Of a DNA stretch of 64,000 nucleotides, positions 44,695 to 48,520 are shown in pieces. The stretch is from NCBI RefSeq assembly GCF_009914755.1, contig NC_060947.1; one strand, 5' to 3'. A program made the translations under genes and the position numbers. Below the pieces are notes generated by a model. The model worked only from the letters and a program-made list of their open reading frames with translations. It made no database searches and was not told the origin of the DNA. This DNA is from the human T2T-CHM13v2.0 reference genome, Homo sapiens. How positions within the stretch are numbered: position 1 is the first letter of the stretch; each line of letters begins with the position of its first letter.

Positions 44695-47130
44695 TCTTTC
44701 TTTCTTTTTTTTTTTTTTTTTTGAGATGGAGTCTCGCTCTGTCACCCAGCCTGGAGTACAGTGGCACGATTTCAGCCCACTGCAACCTCCGCCACCCGGG
44801 TTCAAGTGATTCTCCTGCCTCAGCCTCCTGAGTAGCTGGGACTACAGGCATGCGCCACCGTGCCCGGCTAATTTTTGTATTCTTATTAGAGACGGGGTTT
44901 CGCCATGTTGGCCAGGCTGGTCTTGAACTCCTGACCTCAGGTGATCCACCTGCCTCGGCCTCCCAAAGTGCTGGGATTACAGGCATGAGCCACCGCACCC
45001 GGCCTGCTTGCAATATTTTCTACCCAGAACACCAATCCTCTCATCCAGTTCTTCACCTAACTGGCTTCTTTGCATCCCTCAGTGCTCTGCTCAGATGTTG
45101 CCTTTAAAGTAGTATCCCTCAACACAGAAAATTCCAGTACTCTCTGTCACAGCACTGTTCATTTCTTTCTTACCTAGTACTAATCAAAATTTTCTTTTGT
45201 AACAAGCACAGATTCTGAAACCAGACTGCTTGAATGTGAATTTCTGCTCTGCCATTTACTAGCTGTGTGACAAATTACTTAATCTCCCTGGAACTCAGTT
45301 TTCCTCATCTGTCAGATAGGGATACTAATATCTCACAGGCTTATTTCAAAGATTAAATGAGTGAATAATGTAGAGTACTTCAAACAGGACTTGGCACACA
45401 GTAAGCACCATATAAATGTCAGCTATCACTACTAGTATTATTTGTTTACTGTTATCATCTTTCTCCTCATCCCACCCCCAGAATGTAAGCTACCCAAGAG
45501 TGGAGATCATTCTGTGCTGCTTACAACTGTATTTCCAGAACATAGAGCATGTGGTGGGTACTCAGTAACTATTTGTCGAAGGAACAATTAAGCTGAAATG
45601 TCTTGATGAATAAGGGGTGGTGGCAGGTTTAACGTAGCTCTCTCTGAGAGCACTTCCAGTTCCTGGGAGGAGTTGGAGGAGGAAGGGGACTATGTAGGAA
45701 GTCTCTACGACTAGCCCAGTGCTGGCCCAGGGCAGATGCAGGGAAACAAGCTGGATTTATGGAAGAATGTCTGCCCCTGCCTCACTCTGCAAGAATCATG
45801 ATACCATGGAGGCTGGAGGCAGGAAGCAGTGAGGAGTCAGTCAGTGAAGCCAGCAGTTATGTGAATACCAGGGGCTCTGAACTAGGAGCAGGACTGGGGC
45901 ACTGGAATGTATTAAGTAAAGGAGTGATGTCATAAGATCTGCAGGTCAGAACAGCCTCTGTGGTGTGAACTAAGTAGAAGAAACTAGAAGTGAAGAGACC
46001 AGGGAGGCGGCTGTAGAAACAGCAGATGATAAGTGGTAGAGGCTAAGGCAAAGCAGGGCCACAGGGTGGATATAAAACTTTTTTTTTTTAAATTGAGACA
46101 GAGTCTTGCTCTGTCGCCCAGGCTGGAGTGCAGTGGTGCAATCTTGGCTCACTACAACCTCCGCCTCCCGGGTTCAAGCGATTCTCCTGCCTCAGCCTCC
46201 CGAGTAGCTGGGACTACAGGCACGTGCCACCACACCCGGCTAATTTTTTGTATTTTTAGTAGAGACGGGGTTTTACCACGTTAGCCAGGATGGTCTCCAT
46301 CTCCTGACCTCATGATCTGCCTGCCTTGGCCTCCCAAAGTGCTGGGATTACAGGCCTGAGCCACCACGCCCGGCCATAAAACTTTTAAAAAGTCAAATAT
46401 TTTAGAGGGAAGATGAGTTAATAGAAGGATAATATTATAACTAATGCTTCCATAGCTGATACTATGTGCAAGGCTCTGTTTTAAGTGATTTACGTACATT
46501 TATTCATTTAATCCTCACAAAAGCCCTGTGAAGAGGCAGGTACTGTTATTATCATGACTTCCATTTTAAACATTTGGGAACCAAGAACCAGGCAAGTTAA
46601 GTAACTTCCTCAAGGTTACAGTTAGTAAAAGGTAGAGCCAAGATTTTAATCTAGGCCTTCTGGTTCCAGAGTCCCTGCTGGTACCTACTACTTGCTCAAC
46701 TGCCTCTCCTGGTATTGTACCTGCTTAAAGGTTATTTTCGGTTTTGTTTTTTTAAGGTCATAGGCACTATATTCTCAGATGGAGCCTTAGAAATACCATT
46801 TTTGGGCCGGGCGCGGTGGCTCACGCCTTTAATCCCAACACTTTGGGAGGCCAAGACGGGTGGATCACCTGAAGTCGGGAGTTCAGGACCAGCCTGACCA
46901 ACATGGTCATTTTCTCTACTAAATGTCCTCTCCCACCCATGTCATTTTCTCTCATCTCTACTAAAAATACAAAGTTAGCCAGGCATGGTGGCATATGCCT
47001 GTACTTCCAGCTACTTGGGAGGCTGAGGCAGGAGAATCGCTTGAACCCAGGAGGCAGAGGTTGCAGTGAGCTGAGATCATGCCATTGCACTCCAGCCTGG
47101 ACAATGAGAGTGAAACTCCATCTCAAAAAA
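44695..47130. mobile_element. Alus (- 44695-45004, - 46079-46375, + 46805-47130) with MIR/L2 fragments (about 45200-45590, 46430-46680)
   Basis: Alu consensus, TSD GCAATATTTTCT; MIR CTCAGTTTTCCTCATCTGT. Confidence 0.82.
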
Positions 47131-47608
47131 ATTTGCTGCCATGAGACTTTTTTCCTTAAAACACACTAAAAACATAGACAATTATCAACTGTGGATACAG
47201 AAGATAGATGAGGGAACAAAAGACAATGTCTCCAACTGCCCAGTAGATTTAGAAACAGACAGGACACTAAAATCAATGGGGAGATAGAATTAGTAGCTCC
47301 AGGATGAATTATCTGGAAGAGGTAGAACCCCAGGCTCATGTCAGATGAAGAGAAGAAAGAGAAAAGGGAAGAAGCTCGAACACTTTTCCATCCTATATTA
47401 AGCATAAGAACTCTGCCTAAAACCCCCCAACACCTTGGAGCACCACAGCATCAACCCCACATTATACACATGGAGACTTGAAGCTCAAATAAAAGGAGTG
47501 ACTTGGCCAGGAACCAGGTGACCTCAGGGCTCAAAGCCTTCTAATCCCAGCAGAGTGAGCGGCCCCATCTGTCAAATTACTGCCCCCCAGCAGCAATCCA
47601 GGACCTGT

Positions 47609-47629
47609 TTCAGCACCACGGACAGTGCT
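47609..47629 (+). promoter_or_regulatory. REST/NRSF binding site (RE1/NRSE)
   Basis: TTCAGCACCACGGACAGTGCT versus consensus TTCAGCACCACGGACAGCGCC: 19/21, first 17 bases identical. Confidence 0.88.
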
Positions 47630-47730
47630 CCAGGGCCAGACCCTGTCCAATCACTCTCTGCCGCTGTTAGGTTTCAGCCCAGATGACCCCTACCCCTCAT
47701 TTCCCCTTTGACTATCCCAGGCACCAGCAC

Positions 47731-47838
47731 CTTGCTGAACTCGGCCATTAGTGTGCTGTTCTGCAAACGGAAGTCCTCCTCCTGGCTGTGCAGCTTTGCC
47801 TGCAGCATCTCATTTTCACTCAGCAATACCTCGACTTC
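47731..47838 (-). CDS. GRIPAP1: GRIPAP1 exon 5
   Basis: [36 protein letters not shown]; 108 nt, phase 0/0. Confidence 0.94.
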
Positions 47839-47869
47839 CTGCAGTGGCAGACAAGGGCCAGGACTCCAG

Positions 47870-48520
47870 CAAGGGCAAAAAGGATAGGGAGGTAGGGCAA
47901 AGAAACAGAGAGAGGGAGAAAATGACATGGGTGGGAGAGGACATAGGGTACAGAGAATGAGGTGATATAGGAGAAAGAGACATGGGGAGGGATAAAATGA
48001 GAGACAGGGAAAGGAAGATAAAGACATGGGAAGGTAGAGAGAAGGGAATACAGGGAGGAAGAGAGCGGAGGAAAAGACAGGAAGATAATGATTGGGGAGA
48101 GAGGAAGTAGAGATGGGGAAAGGGGGAGAGATAGAAAAGGGGAGAGGGATTGGGAGGGAGAGAGTGAAAAAGACGGAGAGAAGAACAAACAGAAATCAAC
48201 AGGGAGAGAACAGAACAGGGAGAAGAGGAGGGGTCAGGAAAAGAAATGAGTTAGGAAGAGAGAGGAATGGGGTGGAAGAAACAAGGAGTTAGAGAGAGAA
48301 AGCAGAAAAAAGAGAAATCACCGAGACAGGAACAGGAGGGGGAGAGACAAAGAGAAGATTGGGAAGAGAAATGAGTCAGAGAGACAGGAACAGGAAAACA
48401 GACAGAGACAGAAAGAGACTCAGAGAAAAGAATGGAAAGAGAGAGAAGGAAAGAGACACAGAGTTAGGACAAATACAGGGAAACAAGGACAGATACAGCA
48501 ACACATGGCAGTGAGGTAGT
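47870..48520. repeat. GA-rich polypurine low-complexity tract (CU-rich on the transcript)
   Basis: Read directly; similar tracts at about 26090-26335 and 31365-31600. Confidence 0.85.

What the first reader, a model, noticed from the sequence alone, without database searches (positions are those of the whole stretch)
46906..47944. 29-bp templated inverted insertion in an Alu creates a complementary pair bracketing in-frame exon 5
Seen: the Alu at 46805-47130 has lost its usual GAAACCCCG segment and carries ATGTCCTCTCCCACCCATGTCATTTTCTC (46923-46951). This is the exact reverse complement of GAGAAAATGACATGGGTGGGAGAGGACAT at 47916-47944, about 1 kb away. A second partial copy GTCATTTTCTC (46906-46916) and a repeated CTCTACTAAA sit alongside. 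Established: serial short templated insertions are typical of polymerase-theta end joining or template switching. The source copy lies about 80 nt upstream of the exon 5 acceptor and the inserted copy lies in intron 5. Inference: in the pre-mRNA they can form a perfect 29-bp duplex that loops out exon 5 (108 nt, phase 0/0), favouring in-frame skipping or exon-5 circularisation. This would be a lineage-specific RNA structure created by a repair accident.
Basis: partly seen in the sequence, partly recalled or inferred. Interest (0 to 1): 0.75.

Follow-up and report, generated by a model that had tools for sequence, protein, structure and literature searches.

The report
Templated inverted insertion in intronic Alu
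An Alu repeat in an intron of the human GRIPAP1 gene carries a small patchwork insertion copied backwards from DNA about 1 kb away, a known kind of repair or replication scar, and its suggested effect on splicing of the exon in between has not been tested.

Summary
The 29-mer at 46923-46951 is the exact reverse complement of 47916-47944. Shuffles give 0 matches. These are the only two places in the 3.1-Gb assembly at up to 2 mismatches.

All 27 other window Alus that I aligned have a short AACCCC(G/A) segment where this Alu has about 45 nt. The insert parses into three templated tracts plus one orphan base, with 2-, 4- and 1-nt junction overlaps. The left junction is unique in the genome. This is an in-situ, microhomology-primed serial template switch, and it is younger than the Alu. 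The enzyme cannot be told from the scar.

GRIPAP1 exon 5 is 108 nt, phase 0/0. One arm lies 77 nt upstream of its acceptor and the other 779 nt downstream of its donor.

The duplex (-55.7 kcal/mol) dominates a 1.1-kb fold, with mean pair probability 0.994. When the inverted Alu 430 nt away in the same intron is included, 0 of 29 pairs form. The exon is short for circularisation, RefSeq lists one transcript, and I found no GRIPAP1 circRNA in print.

I could not test the age, polymorphism or RNA effect, because no primate genomes or RNA data were available.

The parts
46805..47130 (+). Alu element in GRIPAP1 intron 5, antisense to the gene, which hosts the insertion
   Evidence: BLAST against the window finds Alu copies throughout. 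They align to its positions 1-103 and about 150-326. Alignment with 27 other Alus is. Non-CpG divergence from their consensus is 19/243 and CpG divergence is 17/44.
46908..46952 (+). Composite insertion of about 45 nt that replaces about 7-9 nt of Alu sequence (borders ambiguous by 1-3 nt)
   Evidence: Absent from 27 of 27 other aligned Alus. The left-junction 30-mer is unique in the 3.1-Gb assembly at up to 3 mismatches.
46906..46916 (+). Tract 1: 11 nt identical to the reverse complement of 47916-47926. Its first 2 nt (GT) overlap the left Alu flank.
   Evidence: Longest-match parse; direct repeat family D4.
46913..46923 (+). Tract 2: 11 nt identical to the right Alu flank at 46955-46965. 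It overlaps tract 1 by 4 nt (TCTC).
   Evidence: Longest-match parse.
46923..46951 (+). Tract 3: 29 nt, the exact reverse complement of 47916-47944. It overlaps tract 2 by 1 nt. T at 46952 is an orphan and the Alu resumes at 46953.
47916..47944 (-). Source copy in GRIPAP1 intron 4, 77 nt upstream of the exon 5 acceptor. It is single-copy DNA within a GA-rich degenerate repeat.
   Evidence: The 121 nt around it match only themselves and the Alu insert in the assembly. Similar neighbouring units form family D1.
47731..47838 (-). GRIPAP1 exon 5: 108 nt, phase 0/0, 36 codons, bracketed by the two arms
   Evidence: Supplied annotation; translation is open; splice-site context read.
46118..46375 (-). 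Neighbouring Alu in the opposite orientation in the same intron. It competes for pairing with the host Alu.
   Evidence: BLAST hits at 80.6-85.8% identity. In the 1,941-nt fold, 234 nt of the host Alu pair with it and 0 of 29 pairs of the exon-bracketing duplex form. Alu-Alu duplex energy is -439 kcal/mol.

Best explanation
This is a germline mutational scar. After the Alu had inserted into GRIPAP1 intron 5, a break or stalled replication within it was resolved by serial, microhomology-primed template switching.

The extending strand copied 9-11 nt from the opposite strand of a unique stretch of intron 4 about 1 kb away. It then jumped to the Alu flank across the gap using a TCTC overlap and copied 7 nt. 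It went back to the intron-4 template and copied 28-29 nt ending at the same point. It finally rejoined the Alu, losing about 7-9 nt of Alu sequence.

The polymerase cannot be told from the scar. Candidates are Pol theta acting on a long resected tail that snapped back, or a replicative MMBIR/TSM-type switch.

As a by-product, the GRIPAP1 pre-mRNA gained a perfect 29-bp duplex potential (45 nt at 89%) across exon 5. I judge this most likely neutral, with at most a minor effect on exon 5 inclusion or back-splicing.

Shown here: the sequence relations, uniqueness, direction of copying, relative age and thermodynamics. Inferred: the order of the switches, the enzyme and neutrality.
For: - Exact 29-nt inverted identity, with 0 matches in 100 shuffles.
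- Only two copies in 3.1 Gb. The source region is single-copy.
- The insert is absent from 27 of 27 other aligned Alus.
- The left junction is unique in the genome, so this is not an inherited Alu subfamily feature.
- The parse into tracts of 11, 11 and 29 nt, with overlaps of 2, 4 and 1 nt, leaves 1 orphan base.
- If the insert were as old as the Alu (non-CpG divergence 19/243), 4.5 differences would be expected in the 29-nt pair and 0 are seen, P = 0.011. Counting all about 48 duplicated nt gives P = 0.0005.
- Multi-round templated insertions with junction microhomology are described for Pol theta (passages of PMC7165422) and for MMBIR-type events, including common germline ones (passages of PMC8421209).
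- One-step creation of inverted repeats and RNA hairpins by template switching is described in PMC5453318 (passages) and in PMC8794818 and PMC10710096 (abstracts).

For little or no RNA effect:
- With the neighbouring inverted Alu included, 0 of 29 duplex pairs are in the minimum-energy fold, and enforcing them costs +114.8 kcal/mol.
- ZKSCAN1 exons of 400 nt or less circularised poorly or not at all (passage of PMC4201285), and exon 5 is 108 nt.
- The supplied RefSeq table lists one GRIPAP1 transcript, which includes exon 5.
Against: - The 29-nt tract and the 964-nt template distance are atypical for local Pol-theta insertions, and they lie outside the 100-bp search range used for MMB-TIs. 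The event therefore fits neither described class cleanly.
- In isolation the duplex is very strong, which argues against neutrality. It is -55.7 kcal/mol (-75.8 extended), and it is present in both the MFE and the centroid of the 1,111-nt fold, with mean pair probability 0.994.
- The duplex is transcribed about 550 nt before the competing Alu begins.
- It is the only significant complementarity between introns 4 and 5 (E = 7.7e-12; next best is a 12-nt match at E = 0.2).
- It is more stable than the most stable class (-30 kcal/mol or below) of exon loop-outs that go with lower inclusion (passages of PMC8052449).
- The fold model cannot represent a pseudoknot, so the computed mutual exclusion with the Alu-Alu helix may overstate the competition.
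- No RNA data were examined.
Confidence: 0.7

Rival explanations
1. The 29-bp (extended 45-nt) duplex forms in the nascent GRIPAP1 pre-mRNA and loops out exon 5. It measurably promotes in-frame skipping (loss of 36 residues) and/or an exon-5 circular RNA, as a structure newly created by the mutation.
For: - Duplex energy is -55.7 kcal/mol, or -75.8 extended.
- The duplex closes the loop in both the MFE and the centroid of the 1,111-nt fold. Pair probabilities are at least 0.911, mean 0.994.
- It is the only significant intron 4 to intron 5 complementarity, and no Alu lies in introns 3-4.
- Both arms are transcribed before the competing Alu.
- Inverted repeats of about 30-40 nt sufficed for circularisation in plasmids (passages of PMC4201285).
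- Exons looped out by stable intronic pairings have lower inclusion (passages of PMC8052449 and PMC10691357).
- The exon 5 donor AAG|GTGCTG departs from the consensus as I recall it at +4 to +6, so the exon may be sensitive.
Against: - Zero of 29 pairs are in the minimum-energy fold once the inverted Alu at 46118-46375 is included. Enforcing them costs +114.8 kcal/mol.
- Competition between pairing within one intron and pairing across flanking introns is reported to affect circularisation efficiency. I saw this only as a review's account of Zhang et al. 2014 (passage of PMC5731806); I did not see the original.
- A 108-nt exon is well below the lengths that circularised efficiently, and not all stable repeats support circularisation (passages of PMC4201285).
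- RefSeq lists a single transcript.
- The full-text search for GRIPAP1 with circRNA gave 4 papers. None of the 3 whose passages I read concerns a GRIPAP1 circRNA, and the fourth I saw as a listing only.
- No RNA-seq, RIC-seq or PARIS data could be examined.
Confidence: 0.17
2. The insertion is not a fixed lineage feature. It is instead a rare human polymorphism, a variant private to this genome, or an assembly artefact.
For: There are zero differences among all duplicated tracts, about 48 nt, which is compatible with a very recent origin. Only one human assembly was available.
Against: - The internal logic of the junctions (three templated tracts with overlaps) is what a biological event gives, and an assembly error would not produce it.
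- Zero differences is also expected for any age up to roughly 3-5% per-lineage divergence.
- By general population-genetic reasoning (my estimate, not a call), far more variants in a haploid genome are old and fixed than polymorphic.
Confidence: 0.05
3. The two copies are related by chance, or both belong to a dispersed repeat family, so no templated event is needed.
For: The intron-4 region is a GA-rich degenerate repeat with similar units nearby (family D1 at 79-84% identity; TRF rows).
Against: - Zero matches in 100 shuffles.
- Only two copies in 3.1 Gb at up to 2 mismatches.
- The 121 nt around the source match only themselves and the Alu insert.
- Among the 15 longest of the 162 exact inverted pairs in the window (16 nt or more, within 3 kb) that my incomplete Alu mask did not flag as Alu-Alu, this pair ties for longest at 29 nt with a poly-A/T run. 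By reading that listing, it is the only one of the 15 that is neither a homopolymer run nor recognisably Alu sequence that the mask missed.
Confidence: 0.01

Closest known systems
Template-switch mutations (four-point model; Loytynoja and Goldman 2017, PMC5453318; Monttinen and Loytynoja 2022, PMC8794818; Monttinen et al. 2023, PMC10710096)
   Same: [quoted passage not shown] In one event this creates a perfect inverted repeat that can pair in a transcript. Such events are reported to be enriched in introns, where new structures are expressed with the host gene (abstract of PMC10710096).
   Different: The described cases are short-range and give local hairpins. Here the template lies 964 nt away, the event took at least three template jumps rather than one switch and return, and the resulting pair spans a whole exon. 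One arm is inside a repeat. A filter of PMC5453318 excludes a repeat-masked copied (2->3) fragment; whether the intron-4 source here is masked I do not know.
MMBIR-type templated insertions (MMB-TI; Osia et al. 2021, PMC8421209)
   Same: Inverted copies of at least 10 bp, microhomology or microhomeology at junctions, a complex multi-template class, and frequent occurrence as harmless germline variants.
   Different: MMBSearch looks for templates within 100 bp of the insertion, and here the distance is 964 bp. Junction overlaps here are 2, 4, 1 and 0-1 nt. In the tumour samples of that paper, 80% of junctions had 2-13 bp, averaging 3.7 bp.
Polymerase-theta templated insertions (TINS; Carvajal-Garcia et al. 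2020, PMC7165422)
   Same: Repeated rounds of annealing at short microhomology, abortive synthesis and re-annealing. Both direct and inverse repeats of flanking DNA occur. There is a small deletion at the junction. The first two tracts (9-11 and 7-11 nt) have the usual size.
   Different: TINS are 3-30 bp and local, primary tracts are rarely over 10 bp, and templates distal to the break made up under 0.1% of repair. Here a 28-29-nt tract comes from about 1 kb away, which would need a long resected tail folding back. No genetic evidence for the enzyme is possible from a scar.
Intronic complementary sequences that loop out exons or drive back-splicing (Kalmykova et al. 2021, PMC8052449; Liang and Wilusz 2014, PMC4201285)
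   Same: Two complementary stretches lie in the introns on either side of an exon, less than 10 kb apart and far more stable than the -15 kcal/mol threshold. Their length is near the 30-40 nt that sufficed for circularisation.
   Different: There is no conservation or covariation support, and the pair is probably young. One arm lies in an Alu, so it was excluded by design from the PCCR catalogue. The exon is only 108 nt. A much longer inverted Alu pair within intron 5 competes. No experimental read support was examined.

Membership tests
Template-switch mutation (four-point model) | A fragment copied in reverse-complement orientation from the same locus | tested here: met
   29 of 29 identity to the reverse complement of 47916-47944, plus an 11-nt second partial copy.
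Template-switch mutation (four-point model) | The copied fragment replaces ancestral sequence between the outer switch points, judged against an outgroup or ancestral sequence | tested here: inconclusive
   Only a proxy ancestor was available. 27 of 27 other window Alus have a short AACCCC(G/A)-type segment and no insertion at this point. No orthologous primate sequence could be fetched.
Template-switch mutation (four-point model) | A single switch-and-return event | tested here: not met
   The parse needs at least three templated tracts alternating between two templates. It works like a serial version of the model.
Pol-theta templated insertion (TINS) | Inserted sequence is identical to DNA flanking the break (local template) | tested here: not met
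   Tract 2 copies the immediate right flank, but tracts 1 and 3 copy DNA 964 nt away. Distal templates were under 0.1% of repair in passages of PMC7165422.
Pol-theta templated insertion (TINS) | Short microhomology at the junctions and several abortive rounds | tested here: met
   Overlaps of 2 (GT), 4 (TCTC) and 1 (A) nt. Both departures from the distant template occur at the same base.
Pol-theta templated insertion (TINS) | Dependence on POLQ | not testable with these tools
   A fixed germline scar carries no record of the enzyme.
MMBIR-type templated insertion (MMB-TI) | Inverted copy of at least 10 bp from a template within 100 bp | tested here: not met
   The length and orientation criteria are met (29 nt, inverted). 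The distance is 964 nt. The 100-bp limit is a search setting of MMBSearch (passage of PMC8421209).
Exon loop-out by long-range intronic pairing (PCCR type) | Complementary regions of at least 10 nt, at most -15 kcal/mol, less than 10 kb apart, each within a flanking intron of the exon | tested here: met
   29 bp, -55.7 kcal/mol, 964 nt apart, in introns 4 and 5.
Exon loop-out by long-range intronic pairing (PCCR type) | Evolutionary conservation or compensatory substitutions | not testable with these tools
   No orthologues were on hand. The pair has 0 differences, so it can show no covariation in any case.
Exon loop-out by long-range intronic pairing (PCCR type) | Reduced inclusion of the looped exon, or proximity-ligation read support | not tested
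   No RNA data were available. GRIPAP1 is absent from the main texts of PMC10573301 and PMC10691357 and from the 3 held supplement files of PMC8052449. That catalogue masks repeats.
circRNA-promoting inverted intronic repeats | Flanking inverted repeats of about 30-40 nt or more that base-pair | tested here: inconclusive
   29 nt perfect, 45 nt at 89%. This is at the lower edge of what sufficed in plasmids, and not all stable pairs worked (passages of PMC4201285).
circRNA-promoting inverted intronic repeats | A detected back-splice junction of the enclosed exon | not tested
   No circRNA database or reads were on hand. No GRIPAP1 circRNA was found in the paper search.

The most novel reading that the evidence does not exclude
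A single long-range serial template-switch event inside an Alu created, in one step, the only strong complementarity between GRIPAP1 introns 4 and 5. It forms co-transcriptionally before the competing Alu is made, and it has converted a constitutive 108-nt in-frame exon of a neuronal endosomal-recycling gene into one that is partly skipped or back-spliced in the lineages that carry it.

This would be a worked example of template switching creating exon-bracketing RNA structure, not only local hairpins or miRNAs. Catalogues that mask repeats, such as PMC8052449, exclude this class of pairing by design.
Probability: 0.15. Interest if true: 0.6.

Novelty: new member of a known kind. Interest (0 to 1): 0.3.

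Why it matters
As a DNA event, this is a clean and fully parsable example of a complex germline templated insertion. Its inverted template lies about 1 kb away. That is beyond the 100-bp template distance searched by MMBSearch (PMC8421209) and beyond the flanking DNA that supplies nearly all Pol-theta templated insertions (PMC7165422). Events of this kind may therefore be under-counted.

If the RNA consequence were real, it would extend the known idea that template switching creates RNA hairpins and miRNAs in one step. It would add exon-bracketing structures that alter splicing or make circular RNAs. It would also show that one arm can hide inside a masked repeat.

As it stands, the functional part is conjecture, and the most likely status is a neutral scar.

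Tried and rejected
- **Whole-intron RNAduplex** of intron 4 against intron 5. It returned one sprawling interaction of -417.5 kcal/mol over both whole sequences, which is meaningless for this purpose. I dropped it and used the complementary BLAST from the same call instead.
- **Reading the 45-nt / 89% extension as one 45-nt copy that later diverged.** I rejected this because all 5 mismatches fall in the 16 flanking nt and none in the 29. The flanking part is explained exactly (no mismatch) as tract 1 plus tract 2. The residual similarity reflects the internal repetition of the source region (D1/D4).
- **Repeat-family or chance origin.** Rejected.
- **Inherited feature of an Alu source copy.** Rejected, because the junction is unique in 3.1 Gb.
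- **Alu mask.** It was incomplete, being built from hits to this one Alu only. The count of 162 'non-Alu' pairs is therefore inflated. I relied only on reading the 15 longest pairs listed.
The large structure catalogues of that paper and of PMC10573301, which might list this pair, were therefore not seen.
- **No primate genome, second human assembly, RNA-seq, circRNA database or RIC-seq/PARIS data** could be reached. Dating, polymorphism and expression effects were not tested.
- **Papers on GRIPAP1 with circRNA.** The search gave 4 hits. Passages in 3 of them mention the gene for unrelated reasons. The fourth, on boar sperm, I saw as a listing only.
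Full report
**1. The observation**

The window at 46880-46970 reads as a normal Alu left arm up to ...CCAACATGGT. About 45 nt of foreign sequence follow, and the Alu then resumes at CATCTCTACTAAAAATAC.

- The 29-mer at 46923-46951 has exactly one other match in the window, on the minus strand at 47916-47944, with no mismatch. 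There are 2 matches at up to 3 mismatches, and 0 of 100 dinucleotide-preserving shuffles gave any match.
- The repeat finder extends the inverted pair to 45 nt at 89% (46907-46951 against 47916-47960). It also lists GTCATTTTCTCT twice, at 46906-46917 and 46941-46952.
- CTCTACTAAA occurs at 46914-46923 and 46956-46965.
- In the whole assembly that holds the window (3.1 Gb), the 29-mer occurs only at these two places at up to 2 mismatches.
- The 121 nt around the intron-4 copy match only themselves and the Alu insert.
- I listed the 15 longest of the 162 exact inverted pairs in the window (16 nt or more, within 3 kb) that my Alu mask did not flag as Alu-Alu. This pair ties for longest at 29 nt with a poly-A/T run. 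It is the only one of the 15 that is neither a homopolymer run nor recognisably Alu sequence that the incomplete mask missed.

**2. Which copy is the original**

BLAST of the Alu (46805-47130) against the window finds Alu copies throughout. Every one aligns to positions 1-103 and about 150-326 and skips 104-150.

I picked by hand 27 Alus from that list that have both arms. In the MAFFT alignment, 27 of 27 have a short segment of the GA-AACCCC(G/A)-TCTCTAC form (a few with substitutions, one with a 2-nt gap) where this Alu has the long insert. The Alu copy is therefore derived.

The intron-4 copy sits in single-copy DNA among similar GA-rich units (family D1, 79-84% identity). It is the source.

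The 30-mer across the left junction is unique in 3.1 Gb at up to 3 mismatches. The insertion therefore arose in place and was not inherited from an Alu source gene.

**3. Anatomy of the insertion**

A longest-match parse explains the new sequence as three tracts.

| Tract | Window position | Length | Copied from | Overlap with what precedes it |
|---|---|---|---|---|
| 1 | 46906-46916 | 11 nt | reverse complement of 47916-47926 | GT, shared with the left Alu flank |
| 2 | 46913-46923 | 11 nt | right Alu flank, 46955-46965 | TCTC, shared with tract 1 |
| 3 | 46923-46951 | 29 nt | reverse complement of 47916-47944 | A, shared with tract 2 |

- T at 46952 is unexplained, and the Alu resumes at 46953.
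- Both departures from the distant template happen at the same base.
- About 7-9 nt of Alu were lost. The borders are ambiguous by 1-3 nt.
- The 5 mismatches of the 45-nt extension all fall in the part that tracts 1 and 2 explain exactly. The extension is therefore not one diverged 45-nt copy.

**4. Mechanism of origin**

The pattern is that of repeated annealing at short microhomology, short synthesis, release and re-annealing.

- Passages of PMC7165422 describe this for polymerase theta, with both direct and inverse repeats. There the insertions are 3-30 bp and identical to flanking DNA, primary tracts are rarely over 10 bp, and templates distal to the break made up under 0.1% of repair.
- Passages of PMC8421209 describe inverted templated insertions of at least 10 bp, with microhomology or microhomeology and a multi-template class. 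These are common as germline variants and are attributed to an MMBIR-like switch. That tool searches templates within 100 bp only.
- Passages of PMC5453318 give the general four-point template-switch model.

The event here has features of all three descriptions. It fails the 'local template' feature of each, because the template is 964 nt away, and its longest tract is 29 nt.

By inference, a Pol-theta route would need a resected 3' tail of more than 1 kb that folds back on itself. A replicative route needs only that both strands be exposed within about 1 kb at a fork. The scar does not say which route was taken.

**5. Age**

- This Alu differs from the majority consensus of the 27 others at 19 of 243 non-CpG positions and at 17 of 44 CpG positions.
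- If the insertion were as old as the Alu and both copies diverged at that non-CpG rate, 4.5 differences would be expected in the 29-nt pair. None is seen, P = 0.011. Counting all about 48 duplicated nt gives P = 0.0005. The insertion is younger than the Alu.
- The consensus mixes subfamilies, which inflates the divergence somewhat.
- The upper bound is weak. Zero differences remains likely (P at least 0.05) up to 3-5% per-lineage divergence. By my recollection of primate divergences, that does not exclude an origin as old as the ape and Old World monkey ancestor.
- No primate genome or second human assembly was available ('no relatives here'). 'Lineage-specific' and 'polymorphic' remain untested.

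**6. Gene geometry**

GRIPAP1 is on the minus strand.

- From the supplied annotation, the coding lengths of exons 1-4 sum to 198. Exon 5 (47838-47731) is 108 nt, so its phase is 0/0. It reads as 36 open codons.
- The intron-4 arm ends 77 nt upstream of the acceptor.
- The Alu arm lies 779 nt downstream of the donor AAG|GTGCTG.
- No Alu lies between 47131 and 50566.
- A complementary BLAST of intron 4 against intron 5 finds only this pair as significant (45 nt, E = 7.7e-12). The next best is a 12-nt match at E = 0.2.

**7. Would the RNA duplex form?**

| Context folded | Result |
|---|---|
| Duplex alone | -55.7 kcal/mol for 29 bp; -75.8 with the extended arms |
| 1,111-nt pre-mRNA segment (46880-47990, minus strand) | Duplex closes the whole loop in both MFE and centroid; pair probabilities at least 0.911, mean 0.994 |
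| 1,941 nt, including the inverted Alu at 46118-46375 | 234 nt of the host Alu pair with the neighbouring Alu; 0 of 29 duplex pairs form; enforcing them costs +114.8 kcal/mol |

The host Alu has an inverted partner only 430 nt away in the same intron (46118-46375, 80.6-85.8% identity). The Alu-Alu duplex energy is -439 kcal/mol.

Two caveats cut the other way.

- In the Alu-Alu structure the insert is largely an unpaired bulge. The model cannot represent the pseudoknot in which the bulge still pairs with intron 4.
- Both arms are transcribed about 550 nt before the competing Alu begins, so the duplex could form first.

**8. Would it matter for splicing?**

- Passages of PMC8052449 and PMC10691357 report that exons looped out by intronic pairings have lower inclusion, and more so for more stable pairings. 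The top class there is -30 kcal/mol or below. Validated cases in Table 1 of PMC8052449 range from about -16 to -36 kcal/mol.
- Passages of PMC4201285 report that about 30-40 nt of inverted repeats suffice for circularisation in plasmids. They also report that not all stable pairs work, that strengthening a hairpin can inhibit, and that ZKSCAN1 exons of 400 nt or less circularised poorly or not at all. A 360-nt two-exon circle did form.
- A review passage (PMC5731806) relates the finding of Zhang et al. 2014 that pairing within an intron competes with pairing across introns. I did not see the original.

Against an effect, exon 5 is 108 nt, a far longer intra-intronic competitor exists, and RefSeq lists one transcript.

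I found no GRIPAP1 circRNA in print.

- The full-text search gave 4 papers.
- The passages read in 3 of them are unrelated. The fourth I saw as a listing only.
- GRIPAP1 is absent from the main texts of PMC10573301 and PMC10691357 and from the 3 held supplement files of PMC8052449.
- That catalogue excludes repeat-masked sequence by design (passage), so this pair could not have been in it.

**9. Comparison with what is known, and verdict**

The idea that a template-switch accident creates a perfect RNA pairing in one step is already in print for hairpins, rRNA stems and miRNAs (PMC5453318 passages; PMC8794818 and PMC10710096 abstracts). This case is a new member of that kind. It has three less usual traits: a kilobase-distant template, serial switching, and a resulting pair that brackets an exon with one arm inside an Alu.

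I put the DNA-level account at about 0.9, and the combined statement (scar, most likely neutral) at 0.7. A real splicing or circRNA effect stands at about 0.15-0.2.

Interest is modest at 0.3. The event is well resolved, but the functional claim that made it interesting is untested and is weakened by the competing inverted Alu in the same intron.

Noticed in passing
window 46118-46375 (-) and 46805-47130 (+): An inverted Alu pair lies 430 nt apart within GRIPAP1 intron 5. The predicted duplex is -439 kcal/mol, the kind of long intronic double strand usually edited by ADAR (recalled). The templated insert splits this duplex with a bulge of about 45 nt.
   Followed up: partly
window 47683-47704 with 47916-47944: When the Alu arm is taken up by the neighbouring Alu, the intron-4 arm pairs imperfectly in the minimum-energy fold with a purine-rich stretch 27-48 nt downstream of the exon 5 donor. 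This is a weaker exon-bracketing pairing that does not involve the insertion.
   Followed up: no
window 47840-48460: The 3' part of intron 4 is a long GA-rich degenerate repeat on the + strand (units around GACATGGG; families D1-D3; TRF rows). In the pre-mRNA this gives a pyrimidine-rich tract of several hundred nt upstream of exon 5. By recollection, such tracts bind PTB-type proteins. Not examined.
   Followed up: no
window 47725-47740 (minus strand): The exon 5 donor reads AAG|GTGCTG. As I recall the consensus, it departs from it at +4 to +6, so the exon may rely on other signals for its inclusion. No scoring model was available.
   Followed up: no
window 46906-46965 (read on the minus strand): In the gene's orientation the insertion duplicates the antisense-Alu motif UUUAGUAGAGA and adds a purine-rich stretch with GGGUGGGAG. 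These could act as cryptic splice signals for Alu exonisation. This is speculation from reading the sequence only.
   Followed up: no
window 50567-51137 (+) against 44717-45004 and 46118-46375 (-): Alus in intron 1 are inverted relative to two Alus in intron 5. These pairs bracket exons 2-5 and are longer candidates for back-splicing than the 29-bp pair.
   Followed up: no
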